Below, one piece after another: positions 3,995-63,494 of a stretch of DNA of 64,000 nt. The translations under genes were made by a program, and so were the position numbers. The stretch covers positions 46,669 to 110,668 of the forward strand of contig JAPOVF010000399.1 of the NCBI GenBank assembly GCA_026708285.1, written 5' to 3'. Under the pieces are notes generated by a model that saw only the letters and a program-made list of their open reading frames with translations, was not told the origin of the DNA and searched no databases. Position 1 is the first letter of the stretch. Each line of letters starts with the position of its first letter. The DNA is from Acidobacteriota bacterium (GTDB lineage: Bacteria; Acidobacteriota; Thermoanaerobaculia; Multivoradales; Multivoraceae).

Positions 3995-4591
3995 TCAGAC
4001 TCCCTTCCAGAACTCACGATCGCGAACGTAGCGCAGAACCTGGATCTTCCCCGTGCGGCTGTACACCCGAACGGCAAACAGGTGGTAGCCGTCGGTGAGG
4101 AAGACGGTACCCGGGCTCGCGGTACCGGCGGGGCTGAAGGAAGCGATGTCGCTACGGCCGAACCGGACCGGATCGTCCAGGCGATCGAGTCGGCCTGAGC
4201 CGGTGAACTCCGCCGGCTCCAGGTCATCCGGAATGCCGAAACGCACGCCCCTGCCGACGTGAAGCAACCGTGCCGGCCTCCCGATCCTGGGATCCGTGCC
4301 GGAGTTCAGATCAGCCGTGCGCACGCCGTCACCGTCCCCGTCCGCGTAGAGGGAGAAGACGGGTTCCGCGTGGGAGTCCTCGAACTCGAACCGAATCGCA
4401 ACCGCCACACCGTAGCGGACCGCGCTGCCGCGCGCGGCCCAGAGGGCCGAGGCAACTTCGGCGGCCGCCAGACGCACTCGGTGCTGGGCGATCTGCTGGC
4501 GCAAGGGCGGCACCGCCAGGGTGGCCAGCAAGGCCAGGATCGTCGTGGCCACCAGCAGCTCGAGAAGCGTAAAGCCGGTGCGGTCCTTCAT
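3995..4591 (-). CDS. prepilin-type N-terminal methylation domain pseudopilin (GspH/FimT-like)
   Basis: Class III signal motif G|FTLLELLVATTILALLATLAVP follows a short leader. The likely start is the internal Met (MKDRTGFTLLE). Confidence 0.6.
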   Translation of the reverse strand: MKDRTGFTLLELLVATTILALLATLAVPPLRQQIAQHRVRLAAAEVASALWAARGSAVRYGVAVAIRFEFEDSHAEPVFSLYADGDGDGVRTADLNSGTDPRIGRPARLLHVGRGVRFGIPDDLEPAEFTGSGRLDRLDDPVRFGRSDIASFSPAGTASPGTVFLTDGYHLFAVRVYSRTGKIQVLRYVRDREFWKGV

Positions 4592-11658: not shown

Positions 11659-12537
11659 TCACTCCGCCGCCAGCCGCTCGTAGATGCGGATCAGCTCGGG
11701 TTCGGAGTGGAAGTGGATCTTGAGGACGCCGCCACCCCCGCGGCGGCGGCTGATTTCGACGCGGGTCTGCAGTCTACGCGTTAACCGCTCGACTGCGTCA
11801 GCCGTGTGGGGATCGCCGTCCGGCTTGGCCGCCCTTCGCTTCGCGGCAGGTTTCGTCCGAAGCCCGGCCGCGATGCGCTCCAGCTCTCGCGCACTGAGGG
11901 ATTCGCGCTCCGCGCGGATGCCCAGCTCGATCTGGCTCTGTTCGTCGCCAAGCGCCAGCAAGGGACGAGCCTGGCCCGCCGTCAGCCCTCCGGACTGCAA
12001 CTGCTCCTGCACCTCGGCAGGCAAGCGGAGCAGGCGCAGGGCATTGGCCACCGCGGCTCTGCTCCGGCCAAGACGGCCAGCAATCTCCTGCTGCGAAAGC
12101 CCAAACTCGTCGCTGAGCGTCCGAAAGGCCTTCGCCTCTTCCAGCGGGTTCAGATCGGAACGCTGGAGGTTCTCGACCAGGGCGAGGCGCAGCATTTCGC
12201 GCTCGTCGTCCACGTCCCGAAAGACGACCGGCACCGTCGCCAGACCCGCCTGCCGAGCCGCCCGCCAGCGACGCTCGCCGGCGACGATCCGGTACCGGCC
12301 TCCGCGATCCGGCCCACCGGTGACGACGATCGGCTGGAGCACCCCGATCTGGGCGATCGAGTCCGCCAGTACCGACAGGGCCTCCTCGTCGAACCGGTCG
12401 CGCGGCTGCCGGCTGTTCGGTTCGAGCTCCGCCACCGGCAACTCGCGTTCCACCCGCGGCGCGGCCGGAGAACGGGCCCCGCTGTCGGCGAACAACTCAT
12501 CCAGCCCACGACCGAGGCCACGCCGTCTGCTGCTCAC
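11659..12537 (-). CDS. parB: chromosome partitioning protein ParB/Spo0J
   Basis: N-terminal RGLGRGLDEL, the ParB box (GERRWRAARQAGL) and an HTH region. It lies directly upstream of parA in the operon. Confidence 0.9.
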   Translation of the reverse strand: MSSRRRGLGRGLDELFADSGARSPAAPRVERELPVAELEPNSRQPRDRFDEEALSVLADSIAQIGVLQPIVVTGGPDRGGRYRIVAGERRWRAARQAGLATVPVVFRDVDDEREMLRLALVENLQRSDLNPLEEAKAFRTLSDEFGLSQQEIAGRLGRSRAAVANALRLLRLPAEVQEQLQSGGLTAGQARPLLALGDEQSQIELGIRAERESLSARELERIAAGLRTKPAAKRRAAKPDGDPHTADAVERLTRRLQTRVEISRRRGGGGVLKIHFHSEPELIRIYERLAAE

Positions 12538-12555
12538 GTGACTCCGATGGCGCGA

Positions 12556-13314
12556 TCAGGGCCGGCGGGCCGCGAGTTCCTGCGCCAAGCCCAGATACGC
12601 CTGGGCACCCTTGCTCTTGATGTCGTACTGCAGGACTGGCATGCCGTGACTCGGCGCCTCGGCCAGACGGACGTTGCGCGGAACCATCGTATCGCAGACG
12701 ATGGACCCGAAATGCCGGCGCACCTCGCGCGCAACGTCCCGAGACAGGTTCGTGCGGTCATCGTACATGGTGAGGATCACGCCGGCGATCGCCAGGTCGG
12801 GCCTTCCAAGCTCCCGGACGCGCTGAACGGTCGCCATCAGCTCGCTGATGCCCTCGAGCGCAAAGTACTCGCACTGCAGCGGTACGACGACCGCGTCAGC
12901 AGCATAGAGGGCGTTCAGGGTCAGTCGGCCCAGTGCCGGGGGGCAATCCACGAAGACACGTTCGTATTGCTGGGCAAGGCCTTCGAGCGAAGCGCCAAGC
13001 CGCCGGATCCACGCCTGGTCTCGCTGCAGGCCGAACTCCGCTCCCACCAGGTCCCGGTTCGCGGGCAGCAGGTCGAGGTAGGGAAACCCGGTCGGGACGA
13101 CGACCTCCGCGGCGTCGGCGTCCCCGGAGAGCACCTCGAACAGGGTGGGCGCGCGGCCCGACCAGCCGAGCCCGCGGCTGGCGTTTCCCTGCGGGTCGCT
13201 GTCGACGAGCAGCACCCTTCGCTCCATGGCGCCGAAGGCCGCCGCGAGATTGATCGCCGACGTCGTCTTGCCCACGCCGCCCTTCTGGTTGGCGACCGCC
13301 AGGAGGTCAGCCAC
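12556..13314 (-). CDS. parA: chromosome partitioning ATPase ParA/Soj
   Basis: Deviant Walker A motif AVANQKGGVGKTT. The start is set at GTG 13314, as the longer ORF to 13416 would overlap rsmG by 110 nt. Confidence 0.9.
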   Translation of the reverse strand: MADLLAVANQKGGVGKTTSAINLAAAFGAMERRVLLVDSDPQGNASRGLGWSGRAPTLFEVLSGDADAAEVVVPTGFPYLDLLPANRDLVGAEFGLQRDQAWIRRLGASLEGLAQQYERVFVDCPPALGRLTLNALYAADAVVVPLQCEYFALEGISELMATVQRVRELGRPDLAIAGVILTMYDDRTNLSRDVAREVRRHFGSIVCDTMVPRNVRLAEAPSHGMPVLQYDIKSKGAQAYLGLAQELAARRP

Positions 13315-13951
13315 GGCGGATCGGCCGAAGCAGGAGAAGCCGGCGGTGCTGGCTGTCGGGCAGACCCATTTCTTCTTCCACGGAACACATCGCCGCCAGC
13401 CCGGGCGCCAGTTCACGGCCAGCCCAGACCATCAGACGCCCACCACCCGGAAGCGCCTCGATCAGACGGGCCAATGTGACCTTCGGAAGCCGCACGCCGC
13501 GCAGCGCCACGAACTCTACCGCCCCGGCCAGGCGGCCTGCCGACTCCGGGTCCACCCGTTCCCGAACAACCCGCACCCCTGGAAGGTCAAGCTCCCGGAC
13601 CGCTTCCGCCAGGAACGCAGCCTTCCGTTCGCGCGCCTCCACCAGAACGACGCTCCGCTCCGGATGCAGGGCCGCCAGGACAAGCCCCGGAAAACCCGCA
13701 CCGCTGCCGAGGTCCAGAAGCGACATACCTTCGCCCTCGGTTCTTGACGGCCTCCAGTAAGCCCGAGCCGCAACCGACTCCGCATAGTGCCGCCGGACCC
13801 AGACCTCCGGAGAACCCTCGCCCACGAGGCGAACCACCCGGTTCCATCGCTGCAAGAGTTCCGCATGCCTGTTCAACCGTCCGATCACCTCCCGCGACAG
13901 ACGATCACCGAACTCCCGCCGAAACAACTCCTCATGTTTCACGTGAAACAC
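13307..13951 (-). CDS. rsmG: 16S rRNA (guanine527-N7)-methyltransferase
   Basis: GidB family motifs LLDLGSGAGFPGLVLA, EARERKAAFL. The start codon is a GTG lying inside a parS palindrome. Confidence 0.85.
   Translation of the reverse strand: MFHVKHEELFRREFGDRLSREVIGRLNRHAELLQRWNRVVRLVGEGSPEVWVRRHYAESVAARAYWRPSRTEGEGMSLLDLGSGAGFPGLVLAALHPERSVVLVEARERKAAFLAEAVRELDLPGVRVVRERVDPESAGRLAGAVEFVALRGVRLPKVTLARLIEALPGGGRLMVWAGRELAPGLAAMCSVEEEMGLPDSQHRRLLLLRPIRRG
13935..13950. promoter_or_regulatory. parS: parS centromere site (TGTTTCACGTGAAACA)
   Basis: Perfect 16-bp palindrome identical to the canonical parS consensus. It overlaps the rsmG start, just upstream of parAB. Confidence 0.85.
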
Positions 13952-13980
13952 CCTGCGAGGAGGGGCTCCAACAGGAACCC

Positions 13981-13996
13981 TGTTTCACGTGAAACA
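13981..13996. promoter_or_regulatory. parS: parS centromere site (TGTTTCACGTGAAACA), second copy
   Basis: Second perfect copy, 46 bp from the first. The two copies plus their spacer form a larger near-palindrome. Confidence 0.85.
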
Positions 13997-14121
13997 TGCA
14001 CGGCCTCAGTCCGCGAACCGCCCAACTCTTCCATCTCCCAGTCGAGGGTATCTCTCCACAATCGGACGTTCTGGAGCTTTCGTCCGAAGCACGCAGCCCT
14101 TTCGCCCCTTGCATGAAAAAA

Positions 14122-14186
14122 GCTCGTGCTCGCTGCTTCGCAGCATCGCGCTCGATGCGGACCAGAAGGTCCGCGCATGTATGGTC
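14122..14186 (-). repeat. partial copy of the 3' hairpin module of the ~340-bp repeat family
   Basis: gctgcttcgcagcatcgcgctcg...gcggaccagaaggtccgcg is the reverse complement of the tail of copy A (23440-23500). Confidence 0.6.
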
Positions 14187-14299
14187 CGCCCCGCTGATGC
14201 AAGGGCTTTTCTGGAGTTGGCGGCGAGAGGTGCAGTTTGCTCGCATGTATTCGGCCTGTTGACGGGAGTCTCGTAGACAGCTCCCTGGCCCCGATGGAT

Positions 14300-15700
14300 T
14301 CCGCGCGCGTCGGCCTCTAAACACCCAGACGGCCTCTTGATGGGCCCTTGCGCGGGCTCAGGCTTCTCGACGCGCCGGGACTGTCCTGTTTCGCCATCAC
14401 TCGTTCAAGTCCTCGCAACCGCTTGGTTGGTCATCCTCCTTCGTTGATCGTCCTTCGTCTGACTGAGGCGGTTCATGCCGCTCGGCTGGGCCCTGCCTGG
14501 TCAGCCCGGTAGTAGTCGTCACGTCGCAGCAGCGCCCAGGCGGTCCGCGCCATCTTGTTGGCGATCGCCACGGTGGCGATGTTCGAGCCGCGGTTCTTCT
14601 TCAGGGCCAAGGCCCGCTCCTTGAGTCGAGTCCGTTGACCCAGGTGAGCCGTGCGCAGCACCGACCGGGCGCCATGGACCAGAAGAGCCCGCAGATACCG
14701 GTCACCACGCTTGCTGATGCCCAGGAGCACCGTGCGACCGCCCGTCGATGCCTGTCGAGGCACCAGGCCGATCCACGCCGCCATCTCGCGGCCACTGGCA
14801 AACACCCGGGCGTCGCCGACAGCCGCCACCAGAGCCGTCGAGGTGATCGGCCCAAACCCCGGCACCGCCAGCAGACGACGGCACAACGGATTGTGCTTCG
14901 ACTCGTGCTCCAGCAGTGACGTCAGACCCGCTACCTCCTCACGGGCCCTGACCAGCGACTCGTACTGCTTCCACAGCAGCCAGCGAGTCATCGACGGCAG
15001 GCCGTTCGACGTGTCCGACGCGATGTCGGGTACCTCACGCCTCACCACGTGGAGACCCAAGGGCAGCACGATCCCGTACTCGCGCAGAAACCCGCGCATC
15101 TGGTTGCCCAGCTGCGTGCACAGGCGCACCTGCAGCTGACGCGTACGGTGCACCTGCTGCAACGCTCGACGCTCCTTCGTCTTGTGCGGCACGAAACGCA
15201 TCGTCGGCCGCCCCACCGCCTCGCAGATCGCTGCCGCGTCGTGGAAGTCGCTCTTGTTCGACTTCACGTACGGACGCACAAACTGCGGACTCATCATCCG
15301 CGCGTCGTGGCCCAGACTCTCCAGCTTGTCCACCCAGTGGTGAGCACCGCCGCAGGCCTCCAGACCCACCAGACACGGCTTGAGTCTCGACATCAGCTCC
15401 ATCAACCCGGGCGCCTTCATCTGCTGCTGCAGTACCGGCTCACCGGCCCCGTTGACACCACACACCTGGTACACGTGCTTGCCCAGATCAATGCCGATTC
15501 GACTAATCTCTTCCACGGTCCGTCCCCCCTTGTCGCTTGGGTAAAAGCACCCATTCTGGCCCTCGAGAGGCCGTAAAGGTGCGGGGCGGACCATCCCATT
15601 ACCCAGAGCACGGCCGTCAGGCGGCGACACTCCCTACAGCAACCTGACTGTTTCCGTGCCCGCCAGCGACGCGGTTCAAACGCCGCCCCAAGTCAGCCGT
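14300..15700 (-). mobile_element. IS110-family insertion sequence (approximate ends)
   Basis: Recombinase CDS with ~170-200 bp non-coding flanks on each side. It is inserted between rsmG and jag next to a REP-like hairpin. This family has no terminal inverted repeats, so the ends are not resolved. Confidence 0.6.
14473..15516 (-). CDS. IS110-family transposase/recombinase (DEDD RuvC-like N-domain + Transposase_20 C-domain)
   Basis: N-terminal IGIDLGK (the DEDD first Asp). C-terminal region LLAVPGFGPITSTALVAAVGDARVFASGREMAAWIGLVPRQASTGG matches the IS110-family C-domain. The start is set at GTG (VEEISRIGIDLGK), preceded by GGGGGGA. Confidence 0.85.
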   Translation of the reverse strand: MEEISRIGIDLGKHVYQVCGVNGAGEPVLQQQMKAPGLMELMSRLKPCLVGLEACGGAHHWVDKLESLGHDARMMSPQFVRPYVKSNKSDFHDAAAICEAVGRPTMRFVPHKTKERRALQQVHRTRQLQVRLCTQLGNQMRGFLREYGIVLPLGLHVVRREVPDIASDTSNGLPSMTRWLLWKQYESLVRAREEVAGLTSLLEHESKHNPLCRRLLAVPGFGPITSTALVAAVGDARVFASGREMAAWIGLVPRQASTGGRTVLLGISKRGDRYLRALLVHGARSVLRTAHLGQRTRLKERALALKKNRGSNIATVAIANKMARTAWALLRRDDYYRADQAGPSRAA

Positions 15701-15794
15701 GAAACCCAGAACCCCCCTACCTGACAAACAGCGCGGGGCGCGCCCAAACGCCGACGACCTCCAGCCTGCCCGGGGCCGGAGGAGGGGCTCCCAG

Positions 15795-16085
15795 GGGGCT
15801 GTCGGCAAGCGACGCCCGACGCGACTTCATGAACCACCGCGGAACCGGAGCGCAGCCGACCGCAGCGAGCGTCCAACCTCCATTCATCCGGTAAACGCGA
15901 GCGGCCCCTGGGAGCCCCTCCTCCGGCTCCGGGCAGGCGCGTGCGCCCGACGCCCCCGCATGCACCACCGCCGAACCGGAGCGCAGCCGACCGCAGCGAG
16001 CGTCCAACCTCCATCCATCCGGTAAACGCGAGCGGCCCCTGGGACCCCCCTCCTTCGGCCCTGCCCAGGCGGGTGGGGCCCGACG
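15795..16085. repeat. tandem direct repeat, ~141-bp unit x ~2.1 with an inverted partial arm at 15763-15790
   Basis: The unit gaaccaccgcggaaccggagcgcagccgaccgcagcgagcgtccaacctccattcatccggtaaacgcgagcggcccctgggagcccctcctccggc starts at 15821 and again at 15962 with few mismatches. cctgcccggggccggaggaggggctccc at 15763 is the reverse complement of the unit end. Confidence 0.8.
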
Positions 16086-16103
16086 ACCACCAACCGAGGC
16101 GCG

Positions 16104-16904
16104 CTACACGCTGCGGATGTTGACGCGTTTGAAGTAGCCGTTGCCCTGGCTCTCGGTTTCGACGTCAGGGTCGTCGGCCAGGGTCAGGTGGACGATGCGG
16201 CGGTCGGCGGGGTTCATTGGACGCAGGGTGCGGATGCCGCCGCGGGAGACCACCTCGTCGGCGACACGGCGTGCGAGGCCTCGGAGACGTTCTTCCTTCC
16301 TGCGCTGATAGCCGCCGCTGTCGAGGCGGCACGGCACGATTCGTCCCAGCTCCCTGAACATGACCCGCGGCAGGAGGTGCTGGAGCGCCAGCAGGACCTG
16401 GCCTTCGTCCTCCACGAGGAGCTCCTGGTCCACTCCCTCGATCTCGACCTCCAGCCGGCCGTCGGCCAGCACCATCTCCGCCGACACCTCGAGGTCGGCC
16501 AGCTCCAGCAGTTGCCGAAGCGCCTGCTGGGCAATCTCCAGGATCTCCTCGGAATCCACGGCCGGAGAGTCCACGTCCTCCGGCGCCACCATGTCCGGCG
16601 CCGGCGCCTCCTCCGCTGCCTCCGCCAGCGCATCATCCGAGTGAACCGATGCGGACTCAGCGGCCGTCTCGCCGTCGCGTTCGTCGGTTAGTTCGTCGGT
16701 TGCTTGATGCGCCTCCGAGCGCGGGCCGACCTCTTGCGGGTCGACACGGATCACCACCCGACGGCGCTTGACGAATCCGTGTCGCTTCTCGACCCGGTCA
16801 AACACCACTTGGTCGGGCGATACGCCGAAATGGTTCGCGGCCGCCAGCACCGCTCTGGCCTCCGTTTCGCCTGAAAAGAACACGTTCTTGGTTGGTGTGT
16901 TCAT
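16104..16904 (-). CDS. jag: Jag/KhpB RNA-binding protein (KH + R3H domains)
   Basis: C-terminal R3H-like LRPMNPADRRIVHLTL and an acidic linker. It follows yidC as in the conserved rpmH-rnpA-yidD-yidC-jag cluster. Confidence 0.75.
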   Translation of the reverse strand: MNTPTKNVFFSGETEARAVLAAANHFGVSPDQVVFDRVEKRHGFVKRRRVVIRVDPQEVGPRSEAHQATDELTDERDGETAAESASVHSDDALAEAAEEAPAPDMVAPEDVDSPAVDSEEILEIAQQALRQLLELADLEVSAEMVLADGRLEVEIEGVDQELLVEDEGQVLLALQHLLPRVMFRELGRIVPCRLDSGGYQRRKEERLRGLARRVADEVVSRGGIRTLRPMNPADRRIVHLTLADDPDVETESQGNGYFKRVNIRSV

Positions 16905-16923
16905 CTAAGTCCCGTCCTGTGCC

Positions 16924-18678
16924 TCACTTCTTGGTCTCCGTCGCCTTCGGCGCCACTTCGCCCCCGAGGTAGCCCTTCTTCTTCAGCTTGTTGTAGACGC
17001 CCGTCTGCACGATTCCCAGCAGATTGTTCGTCAGCCAGTAGAGCACCAGGCCGCTCGGAAAGCTGAACGAGAAGATCGTGAACCAGATCGGCATCGTGTT
17101 GATGATCAGCTTCTGCGTCTTGTTGGGCGGCGGCGGCAGCATCCGTTGCTGGAGGAACTGCGAGGCGCCCATGACGAGTGGAAGCACGTAGATCGGATCC
17201 GGCAGCGCGAGGTTCTGAATCCACCCGAGCCAGGACGCGTCCCACAGCTCCACCGCCTCGCTCAACAGCCGGAAGAAGCCGAAGAACACGGGCATCTGGA
17301 ACAGGATCGGCAAGCATCCGCTGGCAGGGTTCACGCCCTCCTCCCGGAACAGCGCCTGAATCTCCTCGTTCATCTTGCGCTGCATGTCCATGCGCGGACG
17401 GCCCTTCCCGTCCTTCAGCTTGGGCCGGTACTTGGCGCGGATCGCTTCCATGCGCGGATTCAGCTTCTGGATCCGCTGCATCGAAACCTGACTCTTGTGG
17501 GTCAGCGGGAACAGCACCAGCCGGATGACCACGGTCATCAGGACGATGCTCCACCCGTAGTTCGCCACGATGTTGTCGTAAATCCAGCGTAAACCGAACT
17601 GCAACGGTCTCGAGATCACGCCGAAGAAGCCATACCGCACGGTCTTTTCCAACCGCACGCCCATCGCCGCCAGAGCGTCGTACTGCTTGTCACCGAAGTA
17701 CGCGCGGCCGGCCAGTTCGCCGCCCGAGGAGCGCAGAACCAGCATCAGGTCCCGGGTCAGCTCGGCGGTGGCGACGTCCGCGGCCTCGAACATGACGAAA
17801 CCGCCCAGGTTGCCGTCGGCCTCTTCCAGGTTGGCGACAGGGCGCGCCTGCACCATTCCCCTTGCACCTGCAGGAATCACGGCTGTGATGAAGTACCGGT
17901 CTTCGAGCGCCACCCAGCGCGGACTGCTCCCGAGATCCCTGGGATCCTCGGTCTTCCGGGGCTCCAGCGACTCCATGTCGCCATCCGAGAACCAGGTCGC
18001 CGCTCTCCGCTGCTGGCTCGACAGGCGGCTCTGCAGTTCCTCCACGGTCGGATTCCGGATTCCCGGACCCAACACCAGCCCCCACGAGTCACCGGGAGAC
18101 TCGACTTCGTACCGGAAGGTCAGACCCCCCACCTGCGTCGTCACTTTCGGAATGTGAAACGTCTTCGTCGCGGTGCCGAGGTCACCGCTGTAGCGGAAGC
18201 TCAGCCGGGTGTCGCCGTCGACGGTTGAGCGATCGACGACGAACAGCGCCTCGTTGAGCGGCGAAGTCCGCTGTGAACCCTGGAACGCGAAGGGGTAGGG
18301 CTGGCCCCGTTCGCGCCGGCGCACCAGTTCCACCGGCTCGCCGCCGTCCGGGCGGCGCAGTTCGAAGGACAGCAACTGGGCGCCGCGGTTGGTGAATTCG
18401 AGCGTGGCGTTGCCCGACTCCAGCACCACCCGCTGCTCGGCCGCGGCCTCGACTCGTTGCACGACCGGGGAGGGCGGAGGCGTCGCCGCCGTCTGCCCGA
18501 TCGGGGCCGGAACCGCGGAACTCGGTTCTCCGGCCGTCCCGGCGTCCACCTCTCGGTCGACGAGGCCAGACTCCACCGGCGCCCGCTCCACCGGTGGCGG
18601 CGGCGCGAAGAGCGCCTGCCAGAGAAGCAGAACACCCAGCGACAGGACCGCGGCGAGCAGGAGTCTTCGACTATCCAT
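16924..18678 (-). CDS. yidC: membrane protein insertase YidC
   Basis: 584 aa with an N-terminal TM segment and a large periplasmic domain. The C-terminal 5-TM core (WGWSIVLMTVVIRLVLFPL...) is typical of YidC/Oxa1. Confidence 0.9.
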   Translation of the reverse strand: MDSRRLLLAAVLSLGVLLLWQALFAPPPPVERAPVESGLVDREVDAGTAGEPSSAVPAPIGQTAATPPPSPVVQRVEAAAEQRVVLESGNATLEFTNRGAQLLSFELRRPDGGEPVELVRRRERGQPYPFAFQGSQRTSPLNEALFVVDRSTVDGDTRLSFRYSGDLGTATKTFHIPKVTTQVGGLTFRYEVESPGDSWGLVLGPGIRNPTVEELQSRLSSQQRRAATWFSDGDMESLEPRKTEDPRDLGSSPRWVALEDRYFITAVIPAGARGMVQARPVANLEEADGNLGGFVMFEAADVATAELTRDLMLVLRSSGGELAGRAYFGDKQYDALAAMGVRLEKTVRYGFFGVISRPLQFGLRWIYDNIVANYGWSIVLMTVVIRLVLFPLTHKSQVSMQRIQKLNPRMEAIRAKYRPKLKDGKGRPRMDMQRKMNEEIQALFREEGVNPASGCLPILFQMPVFFGFFRLLSEAVELWDASWLGWIQNLALPDPIYVLPLVMGASQFLQQRMLPPPPNKTQKLIINTMPIWFTIFSFSFPSGLVLYWLTNNLLGIVQTGVYNKLKKKGYLGGEVAPKATETKK

Positions 18679-18940
18679 CCGCCTCGGCTCTCATGCCCCG
18701 CAGCTTCAGGGACCCCACGCCGGCGGGCGGCAGATCGATGCCTCCGCGGCCGAGAGGCTGGCAGCGGAGCAGGCGCCGGATCGTCAGCCAGCTCCCTACC
18801 ACCAGGCCGTGGCTCCGCAAGGCGATCTGCCCGTACTCGGAACAGGTCGGACTGAAACGGCAGGCGCGTGGAAGGAGCGGCGACAACCAGCGCTTGTACG
18901 CGCGCAGCGACGCCACGGCGAAGCGGACTGGAACGTTCAT
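18671..18940 (-). CDS. yidD: membrane protein insertion efficiency factor YidD
   Basis: 89 aa (MNVPVRFAVASLRAYKRWLSPLLPRACRFSPTCSEYGQIAL...) matching the DUF37/YidD signature. The ATG at 18940 was confirmed in the sequence. Confidence 0.85.
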   Translation of the reverse strand: MNVPVRFAVASLRAYKRWLSPLLPRACRFSPTCSEYGQIALRSHGLVVGSWLTIRRLLRCQPLGRGGIDLPPAGVGSLKLRGMRAEADG

Positions 18941-19311
18941 GACCGCGACGACCTGCGGAGGCGGGAACGGCGGGGGCCGTACCGGCCAGCCGCTCGAAAC
19001 AGGCGGTCGAGTTCCCGGTAGAAGCTGCGCCGGTTCGCTTCGGCAGCCGCGGCCTTCAGGTGGACCACCACGTCCACCGCGGGCAGCTTGTCCCGCCGGA
19101 CCTGCTGGCGGTAGTGCTCCCGCACCCGCCGGCGGAGCCGGTTCCGCACCACGGCTCCGCCGACGCGCCGACTGGCCGTGAGGCCGAGCCGCGGGTGCCC
19201 GGCATCGTTCTCCCGCACGTGGAACACCGCGATGTCGCCATGCAGGCGCCGACCCCGACGGTAGACCCTGCGATAGTCCCGGCTCGACCGGATCCGTCCG
19301 GCCCCCGGTGC
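18937..19311 (-). CDS. rnpA: ribonuclease P protein component
   Basis: SSRDYRRVYRRGRR...HPRLGLTASRRVGGAVVRNRLRRRVRE matches the RnpA RNR motif. The start is non-ATG and approximate. Confidence 0.7.
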   Translation of the reverse strand, partial: APGAGRIRSSRDYRRVYRRGRRLHGDIAVFHVRENDAGHPRLGLTASRRVGGAVVRNRLRRRVREHYRQQVRRDKLPAVDVVVHLKAAAAEANRRSFYRELDRLFRAAGRYGPRRSRLRRSSRS

Positions 19312-19352
19312 GACACCGGAGTTGCACCGCGGGCTGCTCGCTCGACTCAAGG

Positions 19353-19487
19353 TCAGACCGTGAGGCGCTTGCGGCCCTTGCGGCGGCGGCGCGAGAGAAT
19401 CGCCCGCCCGTGTCTCGTCCGCATGCGGGCGCGGAAACCGTGTTTCTTCTTGCGACGCCGGTTGTTCGGCTGGTATGTCCTCTTCAC
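19353..19487 (-). CDS. rpmH: 50S ribosomal protein L34
   Basis: [44 protein letters not shown], with a GTG start at 19487. Confidence 0.9.
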
Positions 19488-19522
19488 GTTGCTTCCCTGC
19501 TGTTTGCTTCCGTGCTGGTTGA

Positions 19523-19612
19523 TGGCGGAGAGGGTGGGATTCGAACCCACGGATCGCGCAAACGATCAACGGTTTTCGAGACCGCCCCATTCGACCACTC
19601 TGGCACCTCTCC
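19523..19612 (-). tRNA. tRNA-Ser (anticodon CGA)
   Basis: The reverse complement folds as a type II tRNA: acceptor GGAGAGG, anticodon stem GCGGT/ACCGT around loop CTCGAAA (anticodon CGA), long variable arm GATCG/CGATC, T-arm GTGGGTTCGAATCCCAC, and an encoded 3' CCA. Confidence 0.85.
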
Positions 19613-19659
19613 TCGTTCCCAGGCCTCTTGGTGCGCCTTCACCCTCTCCAGCCCCAGAA

Positions 19660-19749
<90 letters not shown>

Positions 19750-19750
19750 C

Positions 19751-20257
19751 TCAATCGAAAAGCCCGTTCGACCGTAGACGCCGGAAGAACGCGCGCAACA
19801 AAGCTGAGCTCTCCTCCGCCAGGACGCCGGAGCATACCGTGATTTGGTGATTCAGTCTCGGTTCACGGACGACATCGCCGACCGAGCCGCAGTAGCCGCC
19901 CTTCGGATCCCGCGCCCCGAACACGAGTCGCTCCACGCGAGCGTTGACCATCGCACCGGCGCACATCGCACAGGGCTCGAGCGTCGCGTACACGGCGCAG
20001 CCATCCAGCCGCCAGCCGTTCTGGCGAGCGGCTGCCTGAGCCAGTGCGATCATCTCGGCATGGGCCATCGGGTCGCCCCAGGACTCCCTGCGGTTGTGGC
20101 CGCGGCCGACCACCTCTCCGCCGCGCACGACCACCGCGCCCACCGGAACCTCACCGGCGGCTGCAGCGAGCCGAGCCTCCTCGAGAGCCAACCCCATGGC
20201 AGTTCGATCGTCCACCCGGAGCCCCTCCATCCAGTCGGCGAGCAACCGTAGCAGCAT
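19751..20257 (-). CDS. tadA: tRNA-specific adenosine deaminase
   Basis: CMP/dCMP deaminase zinc motifs [11 protein letters not shown] and PCAMCAGAM. Confidence 0.85.
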
Positions 20258-20492
20258 CCGTCCCCGCGCCGCATCGAAACCGTCCGCCAGGCGACCCGGG
20301 CTGCTACCATTTCACCCGATCCCCGTCTCTACGCACGGACGCGGGATCGAGAGGTGAACGAAGGGTTCGGGCCCTGTGTTTCGACCGGCCCCGAACCTCG
20401 TCAGGCCCGGAAGGGAGCAGCGATAGGGTGTTCGTTTCGAGGGCGCAGTACAGCCGGAACCCTTCATTGACTTCTCCCTCCACCAGCCGGTT

Positions 20493-22190
20493 GTGACGTA
20501 CCAGGCGCTGGCGCGCAAGTGGCGCCCCCAGAGGTTCGCGGAACTGGTCGGCCAGGAGGCCATCGTGACCGCGCTCGGGAACGCGCTGCGCGAAGGGCGC
20601 ATCGCCCAGGCCTACCTGTTCTCGGGCATCCGCGGCGTCGGCAAGACCACGGCGGCCCGCGTGCTCGCCAAGGCGCTGAACTGTGTCGGCGCCGACGGTT
20701 CCGCCACCGCACCGGCCGCCGAACCGTGCAACGAATGCCCGGTCTGCGTCGAGATCACACAAGGGGGAGACCTGGACGTTCTCGAAATCGACGCCGCCAC
20801 CTACTCCAAGGTCGAACAGGTCCGCGACCTCACCGAGAGCCTGAAGTACGGCCCCGCGCGCGACCGCTACAAGGTGGTGGTCCTCGACGAGATCCACCGC
20901 CTTTCCCGGCAGGCCTTTGACGCCCTGCTCAAGATCGTCGAGGAACCGCCGGCCCACCTCACCTTCGTCTTCGCGACGACCGAGATCGAGATGGTGCCGG
21001 CGACGATTCTGTCCCGCTGCCAGGAGTTTCACTTCCGCCGCGTGGCGGCCAGGGAGATGGTGGCCCACCTGACGAGGATCTGCGAAGCGGAGGAGATCGA
21101 GGCCAGCCAGGCGACCCTGCACCTGATCGCCCGCGCCTCCGAGGGCAGTGTGCGCGATGCGGTGGCCCTCCTCGACCAGCTCGCCACGTTCGGCGACGGA
21201 AAGCTGGCCGACGAGGATGTCGGCCGGCTGCTGGGCGGAATCGACACGGAACTGCTCTCCACGCTTCTTACGGCCATCCTGGGTGGCGACGGAGCCCAGG
21301 TGTCGCGGACGATCCGCTCGATCGAGGACGGCGGCACCGATCCGCGGCAGGTGTTCACCCACTTCCTGGGCTTCCTGCGCAGCGCCCTGCACCTGGCGCA
21401 GGGCCTCGACCCCGAGCAGGCCGATCTGCCCGTCGAAGCCGCAAAGGAACTGGCCCGGGTGGCGGCAGATGCGGGCTACGAGAACCTGCTGCGCCTGCTG
21501 CATCTGCTGCTCAGCAGCGAGACGGTCGTCCGGCGCGCCGACGCGCCCGGTCTGGCGCTGGAGGTCGCTCTGCTGCGCGCTGCCGAGTTGCCGAGACTCG
21601 TGCGGATCGAGCAACTCGGTGCCACGCTGCCGGACGCCCTGCCCGCCGCCCCGGACCCGACAGCTCCACCCGGCACCCCCGGGCAGGATCCACTGGTTGC
21701 GTCCGGCGCCGGCGGCCCGGCTGACGCTGCGGGCGCCGACGACGAGATCCAGCGTGTCCTGGCCGCCAACCATCCCTCCCTGGCCGGCCTGCTCGACTTT
21801 CACAAGGCCCGCTTCGCGGTGCAGGGCAGCACTCTCGTCATCACCGCGGTTCCGGCCCTCGAGGAGGCGCTTCGCGACGCCTCGAAGGCGGCCCAACTGA
21901 AGGACGCGGCACGCGCCGTCCTCGGCCCCGACGCCGACTGGAAGACGACCGGCGCCGCGCCCGGCGCGCGGGAAGACGCTCCTTCTCCGGCCGGTCACGC
22001 CCCACGGACCAGCCCGCCGGGGCCGGCGCGGGAAACGGCATCCGGACGACCGCCCCGGCGATCCCAGGGCAGCCGCAGCCCCCAGCCAAGCGAGAAGGCG
22101 CGCCGGACCGCGGAGGAGAACCCGACCGTGCGCGCGGTGCTCGATATCTTCGGCGGCCGCGTGGTCGACGTAAGGCCCCGGACCCACTGA
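20493..22190 (+). CDS. dnaX: DNA polymerase III subunits gamma/tau
   Basis: MTYQALARKWRPQRFAELVGQE, Walker A GIRGVGKTT, and sensor/zinc module CNECPVC. The 724-aa ORF on the opposite strand is antisense junk. Confidence 0.9.
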   Translation: MTYQALARKWRPQRFAELVGQEAIVTALGNALREGRIAQAYLFSGIRGVGKTTAARVLAKALNCVGADGSATAPAAEPCNECPVCVEITQGGDLDVLEIDAATYSKVEQVRDLTESLKYGPARDRYKVVVLDEIHRLSRQAFDALLKIVEEPPAHLTFVFATTEIEMVPATILSRCQEFHFRRVAAREMVAHLTRICEAEEIEASQATLHLIARASEGSVRDAVALLDQLATFGDGKLADEDVGRLLGGIDTELLSTLLTAILGGDGAQVSRTIRSIEDGGTDPRQVFTHFLGFLRSALHLAQGLDPEQADLPVEAAKELARVAADAGYENLLRLLHLLLSSETVVRRADAPGLALEVALLRAAELPRLVRIEQLGATLPDALPAAPDPTAPPGTPGQDPLVASGAGGPADAAGADDEIQRVLAANHPSLAGLLDFHKARFAVQGSTLVITAVPALEEALRDASKAAQLKDAARAVLGPDADWKTTGAAPGAREDAPSPAGHAPRTSPPGPARETASGRPPRRSQGSRSPQPSEKARRTAEENPTVRAVLDIFGGRVVDVRPRTH

Positions 22191-23107: not shown

Positions 23108-23150
23108 CTGGGGACCCGCCCGTCCGGAGCCTGCGGGAAGGGCGTCGGGC

Positions 23151-23515
23151 TGCACCCGCCCGTCTTGGGTCCGGAGGGGTCAGCTCCCAGGGTGACGTGA
23201 GCGCTTCATTGGAGATGGGAGGGGATGGCGCTCACTCCGCTTCACTCGCTCCGGTTGGGCGTCGGTTGCGTGCAACGTCGTCGGCCGTCGCTCGTTCAGA
23301 GGCACCTGGGAGCTGACCCCTCCGGCCCCGACTGGGCTGGCGGTCGTTGCCCTGAGGCGAGGCACCGACCTACAACGCCCGCAGCGATCTCATGTGATCC
23401 GCATGTAGAGAAGCTCGCCGCACCGGTGCCGCTCTCTGGGTGCGCGGACCTTCTGGTCCGCAGCGAGCGCGATGCTGCGAAGCAGCGAGCGCGAACTCTA
23501 GACACGCAGACGAGA
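23151..23515 (+). repeat. ~340-bp structured intergenic repeat, copy A
   Basis: Begins cacccgcccgtcttgggtccggaggggtcagctcccag. The internal 20-bp inverted repeat ccggaggggtcagctcccag / ctgggagctgacccctccgg is ~130 nt apart. The 3' hairpin is GCGGACCTTCTGGTCCGC. It exactly fills the gap between the convergent recR and aminotransferase genes. Confidence 0.85.
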
Positions 23516-47834: not shown

Positions 47835-48165
47835 GCACCCGCCCTTGGGTCCGGAGGGGTCAGCTCCCAGGGTGACGTGAGCGCTTGAGAGGAGATGTGA
47901 GGAGATGGCGCTCACTCCGCTTCACTCGCTCCGGTTGGTCGTCCGTTGCGTGGGGGGCGTCGGCCGTCGCTCGTTCAGAGGCACCTGGGAGCTGACCCCT
48001 CCGACCCCGACCGGGCTGGAGGTCGTTGCCGTGAGGCGAGGCACCGACCTGCAACCTCCGCAGCGGTCCCATGTCATCCGCATGTAGAGAAGTCCGCCAC
48101 ACCGGGGCCGATCTGTGGGTGCGCGGACCGTGGCGCGGACCTTCTGGTCCGCGTTTGCCGCATCC
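47835..48165 (+). repeat. ~340-bp structured intergenic repeat, copy C
   Basis: Near-identical to copy A over the 5' ~230 bp, including both 20-bp inverted-repeat arms. The 3' hairpin GCGGACCTTCTGGTCCGC is present. Confidence 0.85.
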
Positions 48166-49261: not shown

Positions 49262-49599
49262 CTGCCCGGATTCCGCCTGCGGCGGATGCGGACCAAAAGG
49301 TCCGCGCACCCAGAGAGCGACCCCGGTGTGGCGGACTTCTCTACATGCGGATCACACGAGACCGCTACGGGCGTTGCAGGTCGGTGCCTCGCCGCACGGC
49401 AACGACGTCCAGCCCGTCTCGGGGCCGGAGGGGTCAGCTCCCAGGTGCCTCTGAACGAGCGACGGCCGGCGCCCCTCCACGCAGCCGACGACCAACCGGA
49501 GCAAGTGAAGCGGAGTGAGCGCCATCCCCTCACATCTCCTCTCAAGCGCTCACGTCACCCTGGGAGCTGACCCCTCCGGACCCAGGACGGGCGGGTGCG
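49262..49599 (-). repeat. ~340-bp structured intergenic repeat, copy D (inverted orientation)
   Basis: Its reverse complement matches copies A and C. It contains GCGGACCAAAAGGTCCGC hairpin variant and fills the ruvA-ruvB gap. Confidence 0.85.
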
Positions 49600-62072: not shown

Positions 62073-63494
62073 TTGCCCGCGCCGGCAGTCGTCCTCCGCG
62101 GCGTGGGCAAACGCTACCGGCGCGAGGCCGGCGGCTACCGCCTGCGGACTTTGAAGAGCGCGCTGCTCGAAGGCAGCCTGACGAGCGGGCTGGGCGCGGC
62201 CGACGCGGTCGAGGCTCTCGAAGACGTCAGTTTCGAGGTCGCTGCCGGCGAGGCCGTCGGCGTCATCGGCGGCAACGGTTCCGGCAAGTCGACGCTGATC
62301 AAGCTGGTCGCCGGCCTGTTGCGGCCCACCGCCGGCGAGCTGGCGGTGAACGGCCGCGTGGCTGCCCTGATCGAGCTCGGCGCGGGCTTTCACCCCGAGA
62401 TCTCGGGTCGGGAGAACATCTTCATCAACGGCGCCCTGCTCGGGCTGAGCCGGCGCGTGATCGAAGAGCGCTACGACGACATCGTGGAGTTCGCGGGCCT
62501 TTCCGACTTCATCGAAGAGCCGATCAAGAACTACTCCTCGGGCATGTACGTTCGCCTGGGCTTCTCGGTCGCCATTCACACCGACCCCGAGATTCTCCTG
62601 GTCGACGAGGTGCTGGCGGTCGGTGACGAGGAGTTCGTCCACCGCTGCATCGCCCGGATCGAGGAGCACCTTGCCGGGGGCGGCACGCTGCTCTTCGTGA
62701 GCCACTCGATGGGCCTGGTCGAGGAACTCTGCGACCGGGCGGTCTGGCTGGATCAGGGGCGTAGCAGGGCGATCGGTTCGCCGCGGCGCGTGATCGACGC
62801 CTATCTCGAGGGAGTGGCGAAGCGCGAGGGCGAGGCCCATGACCGTCGCCGGGTCCGGGGCGCCCAGCAGGAGCAGTCGCCGCCGGAAGAGGAGGCCGCC
62901 GCGACGGCGCCCGCCGCGGAGGAGGAGGTCCTGCGCTGGGGGTCCGGCCAGGCGCGGATCGTCGGCGCGCGCCTACTGGCCGGGACCTCGGCCGAGGAGC
63001 GCTATCACGTGCATTGCGGCGAGGCGGTGGCGTTCGAGCTCCAGGTGGAGCCGCGGGAAGCCCTCGACGACTTCGTCTTCGGGGTCGGGGTCAAGACGCC
63101 CCGAGGTGTCGACTGCTGGGGCACGAACACCGATCTCGCCGGCTACGAACCGCGGCGTCTGCGCGGTCCGGTGCGGGTACGCCTGGTCTGCCCGGAACTG
63201 CGGCTGGCCCCGGGCGAGTACACGGTCGATCTCGCGGTTCACGCGCGCGACGGCAGAGCGTACGATTACCGTCGCGGAGCGTTCAGGTTCACGGTGGCCG
63301 AGAGTTCCGCGCTCCGAAGCATCGGTCTCTACCTGCCCGACCATGAGTGGCAGGTCGAGGCGCTCCCCGGCGGCGGCGCCGCCCCGCAAGCGGCGATCGA
63401 GTGGCTTTCGCCTGTCCACGCGAACAGCGGGGGCGGCCCCCGGAATGCCGGCCGGAAGGCCGGCGCACCCAGTGACTCACGGAGGATGGAATGA
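62073..63494 (+). CDS. polysaccharide ABC exporter ATP-binding protein with C-terminal substrate-binding extension (Wzt-like)
   Basis: Walker A GGNGSGKST, ABC signature YSSGM, Walker B LLVDE, plus a ~200-aa C-terminal beta-rich extension like the Wzt C-terminal carbohydrate-binding domain. Confidence 0.8.
   Translation: MPAPAVVLRGVGKRYRREAGGYRLRTLKSALLEGSLTSGLGAADAVEALEDVSFEVAAGEAVGVIGGNGSGKSTLIKLVAGLLRPTAGELAVNGRVAALIELGAGFHPEISGRENIFINGALLGLSRRVIEERYDDIVEFAGLSDFIEEPIKNYSSGMYVRLGFSVAIHTDPEILLVDEVLAVGDEEFVHRCIARIEEHLAGGGTLLFVSHSMGLVEELCDRAVWLDQGRSRAIGSPRRVIDAYLEGVAKREGEAHDRRRVRGAQQEQSPPEEEAAATAPAAEEEVLRWGSGQARIVGARLLAGTSAEERYHVHCGEAVAFELQVEPREALDDFVFGVGVKTPRGVDCWGTNTDLAGYEPRRLRGPVRVRLVCPELRLAPGEYTVDLAVHARDGRAYDYRRGAFRFTVAESSALRSIGLYLPDHEWQVEALPGGGAAPQAAIEWLSPVHANSGGGPRNAGRKAGAPSDSRRME

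What the first reader, a model, noticed from the sequence alone, without database searches (positions are those of the whole stretch)
14300..15700. IS110-family element between rsmG and jag with structured non-coding flanks (candidate bridge-RNA locus)
A DEDD/Transposase_20 recombinase (14473-15516, minus strand) sits where many bacteria carry mnmE-mnmG, next to a REP-like hairpin fragment and two parS sites. The ~200-nt region upstream of its start (15517-15720) contains complementary arms (GGTCCGCCCC ... GGGGGGACGGACC) and could encode the non-coding guide ('bridge') RNA found in the non-coding ends of IS110-family elements. The downstream flank (14280-14472) is the alternative, as in the IS1111 subgroup.
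Basis: partly seen in the sequence, partly recalled or inferred. Interest (0 to 1): 0.65.

Follow-up and report, generated by a model that had tools for sequence, protein, structure and literature searches.

The report
IS1111-type insertion sequence with 3' guide RNA
This is an intact 1.4-kb mobile element of a known RNA-guided kind (IS1111 branch of the IS110 family). Its guide ("bridge"/"seek") RNA lies downstream of the transposase gene, not upstream as first proposed, and matches the host repeat it inserted into, so it is a clean but ordinary new member.

Summary
The element is real, but its limits are 14178-15601 (minus strand, 1,424 bp), not 14300-15700. Nine other distinct insertion contexts plus two perfect and one 1-mismatch unoccupied copies of the host repeat in the window fix the ends exactly. 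They are TAATGGG+ATGGTCCGCCCCGC on the left and GCGGGGCGGACCAT+ACA on the right. That is a 14-bp perfect subterminal inverted repeat with 7-nt and 3-nt extensions and no target duplication, the IS1111 signature.

Only 85 nt upstream of the GTG start belong to the element; 15602-15720 is host repeat. They form a 5'-UTR hairpin that buries the ribosome-binding site and start codon, not a guide RNA.

The guide RNA is in the 295-nt downstream non-coding region, core 14426-14229:
- A covariance model built from it hits directly 3' of the transposase gene in about 150 distant relatives.
- 45 of 53 pairs show compensatory change.
- One stem-loop (14378-14301) carries CCGCGCA and UCUGGGUG, which match the two strands of the target TCTGGG^TGCGCGG.
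- The same positions track each relative's own flanks (own 11.1 nt vs cross 7.5 nt).
- AUACAUGCG tracks the right end.

Verdict: new member of a known kind; the downstream alternative is supported, the upstream one is not.

The parts
14178..15601 (-). Complete IS1111-type insertion sequence, 1,424 bp
   Evidence: Identity with independent copies L081, L082, L083 and L166-L173 starts and stops exactly here. Joining the flanks recreates the intact host repeat seen at 23435-23461 and 49288-49314.
15595..15601 (-). Left terminal extension TAATGGG (7 nt)
   Evidence: It matches the 7-nt left extension described for the IS1111 family (PMC11187229).
15581..15594 (-). Left subterminal inverted repeat ATGGTCCGCCCCGC. 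It is also the 5' arm of the 5'-UTR hairpin.
   Evidence: 14-nt perfect inverted repeat with 14181-14194 (I8).
15514..15529 (-). 3' arm of the 5'-UTR hairpin (GGGGGGACGGACC) plus the GTG start. It contains the Shine-Dalgarno-like purine run.
   Evidence: Folds with the left repeat. The same architecture occurs in relatives with different repeats.
14473..15516 (-). Transposase/recombinase gene, 347 aa. Motifs: IGIDLG at 7, GLEACG at 51, DFHD at 90, GLVPRQASTG at 250.
   Evidence: An identical 347-aa protein is P0001.
14229..14426 (-). Core of the guide (bridge/seek) RNA. It is closed by GCGGUUGC (14422-14415) pairing with GCAAACUGC (14240-14232).
   Evidence: 87-89% nt identity to copies whose tnp is 76-80% identical, with third codon positions at 65%. 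CM R1 hits. Covariation.
14301..14378 (-). Target-binding stem-loop (78 nt): outer stem, internal loop, inner GGCC/GGCC hairpin
   Evidence: All 8 outer-stem pairs show compensatory change and 94.8% of cells are paired. The stem was recovered independently on a MAFFT alignment. Coordinates.
14349..14355 (-). Guide 1, CCGCGCA. It is complementary to the top strand TGCGCGG immediately right of the insertion point.
14322..14329 (-). Guide 2, UCUGGGUG. It equals the top strand TCTGGG|TG, so it is complementary to the bottom strand left of and across the insertion point.
14293..14298 (-). Junction segment UCCAUC. It is a candidate left-end (donor) contact, but in this element it pairs better with the RNA's own GAUGG.
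   Evidence: Inconclusive.
14253..14290 (-). Third stem-loop (GGCC/GGCC plus GGGAG/CUCCC)
   Evidence: 97.9-99.7% of cells paired, with compensatory changes in the inner helix.
14242..14250 (-). Junction segment AUACAUGCG. It equals the right-end terminus plus the first bases of the right flank (ATACA|TGCG).
   Evidence: It tracks each relative's own right end (own 5.6 nt vs cross 3.5 nt).
14197..14202 (-). -35-like TTGCAT. In a circularised element it sits 17 nt from CA|TAAT, a -10 formed across the joined ends.
   Evidence: Inferred promoter, not tested.
14181..14194 (-). Right subterminal inverted repeat GCGGGGCGGACCAT
14178..14180 (-). Right terminal extension ACA (3 nt)
14157..14177 (-). 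Right half of the split target, TGCGCGGACCTTCTGGTCCGC (a REP-like hairpin). Host DNA, not part of the IS.
15602..15608 (-). Left half of the split target, ...CTCTGGG. Host repeat, not part of the IS.

Best explanation
Window 14178-15601 (minus strand) is an intact insertion sequence of the IS1111 subgroup of the IS110 family. It inserted, in one fixed orientation and without target duplication, into a REP-like host repeat between rsmG and jag.

It encodes a 347-aa DEDD/Transposase_20 recombinase. In its right-end non-coding region it encodes a structured guide RNA of about 190 nt (14426-14229) of the seekRNA/bridge-RNA kind.

One stem-loop of that RNA (14378-14301) presents two short guides across an internal loop:
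- CCGCGCA pairs with the top strand just right of the insertion point.
- UCUGGGUG pairs with the bottom strand just left of it, overlapping guide 1 by TG.
Together they specify the target TCTGGG^TGCGCGG.

A junction segment, AUACAUGCG, matches the element's right terminus and the adjoining flank.

By analogy with ISEc11, ISPa11, ISKpn4 and IS621, the recombinase-RNA complex would excise the element as a circle. The joined ends would create the promoter TTGCAT-17-CATAAT. The complex would then recombine the circle into a new copy of the target.

Shown here by computation: the boundaries, the repeats, the target, conservation, structural covariation, and guide-flank co-variation across relatives.

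Inferred from the literature: that the RNA is made and processed, that it binds the protein, that a circle forms, and that the promoter is active.

The upstream 'arms' are a separate feature. They form a conserved 5'-UTR hairpin in which the left subterminal repeat pairs with the ribosome-binding site and start codon, most likely damping translation.
For: Boundaries and target:
- Searches give nine other distinct insertion contexts (L081, L083, L166-L170, L172, L173), plus L082 whose left junction alone is on the contig. L171 shares its upstream context with L166. Transposases are 70-100% identical. The ends, orientation and target are the same in all.
- Intact targets lie in the window at 23435-23447 and 49302-49314, with a 1-mismatch site at 48114-48126.
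- There is a 14-nt perfect sTIR with 7/3-nt extensions, as defined for IS1111 in PMC11187229 and PMC11208160.
- The left end has 85 nt of non-coding sequence and the right end 295 nt.

Protein.

RNA:
- The core is more conserved than the gene.
- CM R1 gives full-length, same-strand hits directly 3' of tnp in about 150 of 160 loci at 40-53% aa identity, and only one hit in the window.
- 88.3% of cells are paired vs 65.4% in shuffles and 27-43% when partners are slid. 45 of 53 pairs have compensatory change.
- The same main helices come out of an unfitted MAFFT/RNAalifold run, where 21 of 31 pairs are compensatory.

Guides:
- In 66 unique relatives, the 5' side of the internal loop is the reverse complement of the right flank and the 3' side equals the left flank. 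Own mean is 11.1 nt vs 7.5 nt cross; 59% of own pairs reach 12 nt vs 0.9% of cross pairs.
- For the window, own is 13 nt vs a maximum of 11 in 59 cross pairings.
- The order (top-strand complement first) and the overlap at the insertion point match the published IS1111 seekRNAs.
- A Klebsiella plasmid relative shows the same pattern.

Right-end segment.

Junction promoter: 8 of 12 matches with a 17-nt spacer. The family mean is 8.55 for joined ends vs 7.47 and 6.07 for the integrated junctions.
Against: - There are no expression, binding or transposition data for this element.
- Only one copy is present in 64 kb, although two perfect targets are unoccupied.
- A single-sequence fold of the whole downstream region is no better than shuffles (z -0.64).
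- No Rfam family matches.
- RNAalifold pairs parts of the two guides with each other, so they may be closed in the free RNA.
- The left-end contact is weak in this element: 4 nt, versus 5 bp with the RNA's own GAUGG.
- The A4 pair counts come from a model-fitted alignment and lean towards the model.
Confidence: 0.9

Rival explanations
1. One reading: the guide RNA is encoded upstream of the transposase start (15517-15720), as in IS110-group elements such as IS621, and the arms GGTCCGCCCC / GGGGGGACGGACC are part of it.
For: The arms exist and fold. IS110-group elements do carry the RNA upstream.
Against: - Only 85 nt upstream of the start are inside the element. Similarity between copies ends at 15601 except for the shared target motif.
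- 15602 onward continues the host repeat found intact elsewhere in the window.
- CM R1 has a single window hit, and it is downstream.
- No segment of the 85-nt left end matches the target the way the downstream guides do.
- The element has the long sTIR and long right end typical of IS1111, not the IS110 group.
Confidence: 0.02
2. The upstream arms are a DNA-level signal rather than an RNA hairpin. They would be a third, inverted copy of the subterminal repeat next to the start codon, serving as an extra recombinase-binding or alternative recombination site.
For: The 3' arm is an inverted partial copy of the sTIR and changes together with it in relatives. Sequence alone cannot tell RNA pairing from a repeated DNA site. 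ISPpu9, in the IS110 group, forms several circles from repeated boxes (PMC12288879).
Against: - The 3' arm always overlaps the purine-rich ribosome-binding site and the first two bases of the start codon. That placement is what a translational hairpin needs and has no obvious reason at the DNA level.
- G-U pairs are tolerated: 7 GU at the first pair and 4 UG at the second. That fits RNA pairing, not a DNA repeat.
Confidence: 0.15
3. The element is an immobile relic. The protein and RNA are conserved in sequence, but this copy no longer moves.
For: There is a single copy in the window despite two perfect free targets. The same insertion is present in a 99.74%-identical strain, so it has been stable at this site.
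Against: - The ORF is intact, both ends and the guides are intact, and the catalytic motifs are present.
- The IS is 100% identical between two strains whose flanks differ at 23 of 8,801 positions.
- A 98.8%-identical copy sits in a different context (L081).
Confidence: 0.12
4. The downstream structured region belongs to the host, for example as an rsmG leader, a terminator or part of the REP-like repeat, and not to the IS.
For: It lies between the transposase stop and rsmG, next to host repeats.
Against: It travels with the transposase gene in every copy, in unrelated gene neighbourhoods, and lies inside the right subterminal repeat. No Rfam family matches it.
Confidence: 0.01

Closest known systems
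IS1111-family elements with seekRNA: ISEc11, ISPa11, ISKpn4/ISPst6 (Siddiquee et al. 2024, PMC11187229)
   Same: - DEDD recombinase of 330-350 aa with a GL-P----S/TG motif.
- A perfect subterminal inverted repeat, with 7-nt left and 3-nt right extensions.
- No target duplication, and one fixed orientation.
- The long non-coding region lies downstream of tnp.
- The RNA has a top-strand complement 5' of a bottom-strand complement, and the two overlap at the insertion point.
- The target-binding stem-loop is 78 nt, within the 70-100 nt reported for seekRNAs.
- Like ISPa11, it targets a REP-type hairpin.
   Different: - The transposase is at most 50% identical to any IS in the annotated plasmid set and at most 49% to any in one-genome-per-species contigs.
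- The repeat is 14 bp rather than the usual 11-13 bp.
- The target sequence differs.
- Nothing about this element has been tested experimentally.
- Identity to the named IS themselves could not be measured, because ISfinder is not available here.
IS621 bridge RNA (IS110 group; Durrant et al. 2024, PMC11208160; Hiraizumi et al. 2024 and 2026)
   Same: - The same protein family.
- A guide RNA whose internal loop carries two guides for opposite strands on either side of a short core.
- A second set of contacts for the element's own ends.
- A circular intermediate with a junction promoter is expected.
   Different: - The RNA is at the 3' end of the element, not the 5' end.
- The sTIR is long rather than 2-3 bp.
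- The guide order is reversed relative to the IS110 type.
- The end-matching segments sit in a multi-branch junction, not a simple internal loop, as Durrant et al. noted for many IS1111 members.
Unnamed IS1111-type element on Klebsiella pneumoniae plasmid CP025214 (locus L174)
   Same: - 47.5% aa identity.
- Left end TAATGGA+ATGGTCGCCTCCC and right end GGGAGGCGACCAT+CTA.
- R1 hits 3' of tnp at 55 bits.
- Guides UUUAUUCA and GCUUUGUUGA match its flanks ggctttgt^tgaataaa.
- AUCUAUG matches its right end.
   Different: It has a different target and a different repeat sequence. The host is an enterobacterial plasmid. I did not establish its ISfinder name.

Membership tests
IS1111 subgroup of the IS110 family | N-terminal DEDD (RuvC-like) domain plus C-terminal Transposase_20 domain | tested here: met
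   PF01548 2e-15 and PF02371 3e-22. NF033542 at 313.6 bits, cut-off 140. Motifs IGIDLG, GLEACG and DFHD.
IS1111 subgroup of the IS110 family | Subterminal inverted repeats of about 7-17 bp (usually 11-13), perfect or nearly so | tested here: met
   ATGGTCCGCCCCGC at 15594-15581 and its complement at 14194-14181: 14 of 14. Definition.
IS1111 subgroup of the IS110 family | Asymmetric terminal extensions, 7 bp left and 3 bp right | tested here: met
   TAATGGG and ACA, fixed by comparison with intact targets and ten copies. There is a 1-nt ambiguity (T).
IS1111 subgroup of the IS110 family | The longer non-coding region is downstream of tnp | tested here: met
   295 nt downstream vs 85 nt upstream.
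IS1111 subgroup of the IS110 family | C-terminal GL-P----S(T)G motif and a transposase of 330-350 aa | tested here: met
   GLVPRQASTG at residue 250; 347 aa. Criterion.
IS1111 subgroup of the IS110 family | One specific target, one orientation, no target-site duplication | tested here: met
   All copies sit at CTGGG^TGCGCGG(A/G)CCTTCTGG(T/C)CCGC in the same orientation. The joined flanks equal the intact repeat.
IS1111 subgroup of the IS110 family | Circular intermediate with abutted ends creating a promoter | not testable with these tools
   Only a sequence prediction is possible: TTGCAT-17-CA|TAAT.
seekRNA / bridge RNA | Encoded in the element's non-coding end on the transposase strand, and conserved across relatives | tested here: met
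   R1 hits 3' of tnp, on the same strand, in about 150 loci. The core is more conserved than the gene.
seekRNA / bridge RNA | Conserved secondary structure supported by compensatory changes | tested here: met
   fitted alignment; unfitted alignment.
seekRNA / bridge RNA | [quoted passage not shown] | tested here: met
   CCGCGCA (14355-14349) then UCUGGGUG (14329-14322), overlapping at TG. Criterion.
seekRNA / bridge RNA | Guides change with the target in relatives (natural reprogramming) | tested here: met
   Own 11.1 nt vs cross 7.5 nt; 59% vs 0.9% reach 12 nt.
seekRNA / bridge RNA | Segments matching the element's own ends (donor recognition) | tested here: inconclusive
   The right end is clear: AUACAUGCG, own 5.6 nt vs cross 3.5 nt. 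The left end is weak: own 4.65 nt vs cross 4.04 nt, only 4 nt in this element, and the segment also pairs with an internal GAUGG.
seekRNA / bridge RNA | The RNA is expressed, binds the recombinase and is required for circle formation and transposition | not testable with these tools
   Known for ISEc11, ISPa11 and ISKpn4. Not known for this element.
IS110 group proper (IS621-like) | Long left end carrying the guide RNA upstream of tnp, with no or only a 2-3-bp sTIR | tested here: not met
   The left end is 85 nt with no model hit, and the sTIR is 14 bp.

The most novel reading that the evidence does not exclude
The conserved left-end hairpin could be a built-in riboregulator of this IS1111 clade. 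The ribosome-binding site and start codon lie inside a third, inverted copy of the subterminal repeat. Every transcript entering through the left end would then fold shut over the translation start. The same sequence might also act at the DNA level or be bound by the recombinase-RNA complex, giving autoregulation. I found no description of this for IS1111 elements in the held literature. The general principle, sequestration of IS translation signals by terminal repeats, is known for IS10 and IS50; that statement is from my own knowledge.
Probability: 0.35. Interest if true: 0.4.

Novelty: new member of a known kind. Interest (0 to 1): 0.3.

Why it matters
It adds a fully delimited, apparently intact IS1111-type RNA-guided recombinase system from a high-GC (68%) uncultured lineage. 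Its ends, target, guide positions and about 66 naturally reprogrammed relatives are now assigned. That is useful for annotation, because the longest ORF and the obvious flanks would give the wrong boundaries. It is also useful as raw material for the guide code of the less-studied IS1111 branch. It does not change how these elements are understood.

Tried and rejected
- Rfam scans found nothing relevant: E up to 10 on 13500-16500 and gathering threshold on the whole window. The only local match was a chance P10 hit inside the ORF.
- Single-sequence folding of the 295-nt downstream region was uninformative (z -0.64).
- Protein-seeded scans of one-genome-per-species contigs and JGI metagenomes gave only relatives at 53% identity or less. 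Close copies came from the protein search plus contig look-ups.
- I looked for an IS-free allele of the jag-rsmG spacer. I found only the same insertion in a 99.74%-identical strain, plus short contigs that stop in the host repeat.
- I tested whether transcripts from the predicted junction promoter escape the left-end hairpin. They do not: the hairpin still folds at -33.5 and -29.2 kcal/mol from the likely start sites. I dropped that idea.
- Treating UCCAUC (14298-14293) as a clean left-end guide did not hold. An unfitted alignment pairs it with a conserved internal GAUGG, and the left end, GAUGG and UCCAUC all co-vary.
- The predicted pairing between the two target guides (helices 9 and 10) is probably inflated by the model-fitted alignment. 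It was not recovered.
- Partridge & Hall 2003 could not be read.
Full report
**What is at the coordinates.**
The minus-strand ORF 14473-15516 (GTG start, 347 aa) carries Pfam DEDD_Tnp_IS110 and Transposase_20. It scores 313.6 bits against NCBIfam NF033542, 'IS110 family RNA-guided transposase'. The longest ORF reaches 15630, but that start lies outside the element. The 347-aa form is the one found elsewhere, including the identical protein P0001. All neighbours are on the minus strand: parB, parA, rsmG (13307-13951), the IS, jag/R3H (16104-16904), yidC.

**True limits of the element.**
A BLAST of the region against the window showed that 14121-14177 and 15748-15966 belong to one composite host repeat. 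That repeat is intact at 23126-23497, 47957-48152 and 49285-49420. At our locus it is split...GGTCCGCGCA ends at 14177 and CCCAGAG... resumes at 15602. Joining the two halves recreates the intact copies exactly.

Ten other loci give nine distinct insertion contexts, because L171 shares its upstream context with L166. They are:
- L081 (98.8% nt).
- L083 (80% nt, on a 1.9-Mb contig).
- L166-L172 (transposase 71% identical, six distinct gene neighbourhoods).
- L173 (72%).
A further copy, L082 (91.6% nt), shows the same left junction, but its contig ends before the right end.

In every one, similarity begins at TAATGG(G/A)ATGGTCCGCCCCGC and, where the right end is on the contig, ends at GCGGGGCGGACCATACA. 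The flanks are always the same: CTGGG on the left and TGCGCGG(A/G)CCTTCTGG(T/C)CCGC on the right, in the same orientation.

The IS is therefore 14178-15601 (1,424 bp). It has a 14-nt perfect subterminal inverted repeat, a 7-nt left and a 3-nt right extension, and no target duplication; only a 1-nt T is ambiguous. These are the defining features of the IS1111 family (PMC11187229; PMC11208160). The transposase also has the IS1111-type GL-P----TG motif (GLVPRQASTG) and a length within 330-350 aa.

**The upstream flank.**
Only 85 nt (15517-15601) lie between the left end and the start codon. 15602-15720 is host repeat and is not shared between copies beyond the target motif.

They fold into a hairpin of -36 to -39.5 kcal/mol (z -2.1) that buries the purine-rich ribosome-binding site and the first bases of the start codon.

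The same design recurs in relatives whose repeats have different sequences. Examples are ATGGTCTCCTCC...GGAGGAGACCATG and GTGGACGGCGCCC...GGGGAGCCGTCCATG. Supporting numbers:
- The repeat's best partner lies at a fixed distance from the start. The median duplex z is -2.5, and 61% of cases fall below -2.
- The nine basal pairs are 82% paired, vs 72% in shuffles and 26-43% when slid.
- Four of the nine pairs show compensatory changes, and G-U pairs are tolerated.

I read this as a translational hairpin, not a guide RNA. A DNA-level role for the third repeat copy cannot be excluded. The hairpin still forms in transcripts starting at the predicted junction-promoter start site. So it is not simply a guard against read-through.

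**The downstream non-coding region.**
The 295 nt between the stop codon and the right end contain a core, 14426-14229. This core is 87-89% identical to copies whose transposase genes are 76-80% identical, with third codon positions at 65%.

A covariance model built from six close copies (R1) gave one hit in the window. It gave full-length, same-strand hits immediately 3' of the transposase gene in about 150 of 160 loci, at E from 1e-5 to 1e-15. Those loci encode transposases only 40-53% identical.

On the 98-sequence model alignment:
- 88.3% of cells are paired, vs 65.4% in shuffles and 27-43% for slid partners.
- 45 of 53 pairs show compensatory change.

That alignment is fitted to the model, so I repeated the test on an unfitted MAFFT alignment of 24 diverse sequences. 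RNAalifold recovered the outer and inner helices of the first stem-loop and both helices of the third stem-loop. In that run, 21 of 31 pairs had compensatory changes.

**Guides.**
The stem-loop 14378-14301 (78 nt) has an outer stem, an internal loop and a small inner hairpin.
- The 5' side of the loop carries CCGCGCA (14355-14349), the reverse complement of TGCGCGG, the first seven bases right of the insertion point.
- The 3' side carries UCUGGGUG (14329-14322), identical to TCTGGG|TG across the insertion point.

The top-strand complement comes first and the two matches overlap (TG). This is what was reported for ISEc11, ISPa11 and ISKpn4 seekRNAs.

The decisive test is co-variation. I located the subterminal repeats, and hence the flanks, of 74 relatives. 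Among 66 unique RNAs:
- The same loop positions match each element's own flanks: mean 11.1 nt against its own flanks vs 7.5 nt against others'.
- 59% of own pairs reach 12 nt, vs 0.9% of cross pairs.
- The window scores 13 nt vs a maximum of 11 in 59 cross pairings.

A Klebsiella plasmid relative (47.5% aa identity) behaves the same way.

**Contacts with the element's own ends.**
In the multi-branch junction, AUACAUGCG (14250-14242) equals the last bases of the right end plus the first bases of the right flank. The corresponding segment tracks each relative's right end, for example AUGUAAG, AUAUAAG and ACACAUGAC (own 5.6 nt vs cross 3.5 nt). This fits two published points. Flank bases are needed for circle formation in ISEc11. 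Excision substrates span both loops in IS621.

The left-end candidate UCCAUC (14298-14293) is weak here. It has 4 complementary bases, and in the unfitted alignment it pairs with a conserved internal GAUGG. All three sequences co-vary, so its role is unresolved. Durrant et al. already noted that donor-binding bases of many IS1111 RNAs sit in a multi-loop.

**Junction promoter.**
Joining the ends would place TTGCAT (14202-14197) 17 nt upstream of CA|TAAT. That is 8 of 12 consensus matches, better than either integrated junction. A TTGnnn hexamer just inside the right repeat is common in the family. The joined-ends mean is 8.55, vs 7.47 and 6.07 for the integrated junctions. This is an inference from sequence and from the family literature.

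**Status of this copy.**
The ORF, the ends and the guides are all intact. A metagenome contig 99.74% identical to the window over 8.8 kb carries the same insertion. Its IS is 100% identical, although the flanks differ at 23 positions. A 98.8% copy lies in another context (L081). The window holds one copy. It also has two perfect free 13-nt targets and one with a single mismatch. Activity cannot be judged from sequence.

**Comparison and verdict.**
The element meets every sequence-level criterion of the IS1111 subgroup and of a seekRNA/bridge RNA that I could test. It fails the IS110-group criterion of an upstream RNA. Its transposase is at most 50% identical to anything in the annotated plasmid set and at most 49% to anything in representative genomes. 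Close relatives exist only in metagenome assemblies. It is a new member of a known kind.

Its preferred location for the RNA is wrong. Interest is modest (0.3). The most novel item is the conserved left-end hairpin, which I did not find described for this family.

Noticed in passing
window 15514-15594 (minus strand): The left subterminal repeat pairs with the ribosome-binding site and start codon of the transposase. In effect, a third inverted copy of the repeat abuts the start. The design is conserved, with compensatory changes, in relatives that have different repeats.
   Followed up: partly
window 15602-16090; also 23126-23497, 47957-48152, 49285-49420, 63447-63472: A composite host repeat family: a hairpin GCGGACCAGAAGGTCCGC followed by about 300 nt. 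The copy next to the IS contains a 131-nt tandem duplication (15813-15918 / 15944-16049, 92%) and a 41-nt inverted repeat (15764-15804 / 15898-15938). It is the IS target and looks REP- or MITE-like.
   Followed up: partly
window 13935-13950 and 13981-13996: Two perfect parS-type palindromes TGTTTCACGTGAAACA, 46 nt apart. The first overlaps the 5' end of the longest rsmG ORF (13307-13951) and the second lies just upstream of it.
   Followed up: no
window 12104-20904 vs L175 (ENA ERZ27276915, contig k141_189724): A 243-kb metagenome contig is 99.74% identical here (23 mismatches) and has the same insertion at the same site. The 1,424-bp IS itself has no mismatch.
   Followed up: yes
window 19526-19612, 19663-19749, 20365-20463: Two long-arm tRNAs and the small SRP RNA lie next to the rpmH/rnpA end of the cluster (Rfam gathering hits).
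   Followed up: no
L083 about 4410-4440; L164/L165 after about 2760: In L083 a second, unoccupied copy of the target lies about 60 nt beyond the IS. In L164/L165 the copy loses similarity in the middle of the guide RNA and has no right end, so it is truncated.
   Followed up: no
L022 3166-3350(+) and 3505-3685(-); L105 965-1164; L106 161-339; L008 588-771(-): There are extra model hits. Two different IS1111 members sit tail to tail in L022. Guide-RNA-like hits also lie upstream of, or apart from, a transposase gene in L105, L106 and L008. These may be neighbouring copies or solo RNA modules.
   Followed up: no
window 14393-14397 with 14293-14297, and relatives (A6 columns 34-38 / 141-145): A conserved GAUGG near the 5' end of the RNA pairs with CCAUC in the junction, and both resemble the left terminal extension (xGATGGx). 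The three sequences co-vary (L022, L105, L116). This suggests either an RNA mimic of the left end or a switch between RNA-RNA and RNA-DNA pairing.
   Followed up: partly
L176-L178 (Logan contigs): Short-read assemblies carrying the identical jag gene all break 88-131 nt after its stop codon, inside the host repeat. The spacer is a general assembly breakpoint.
   Followed up: no
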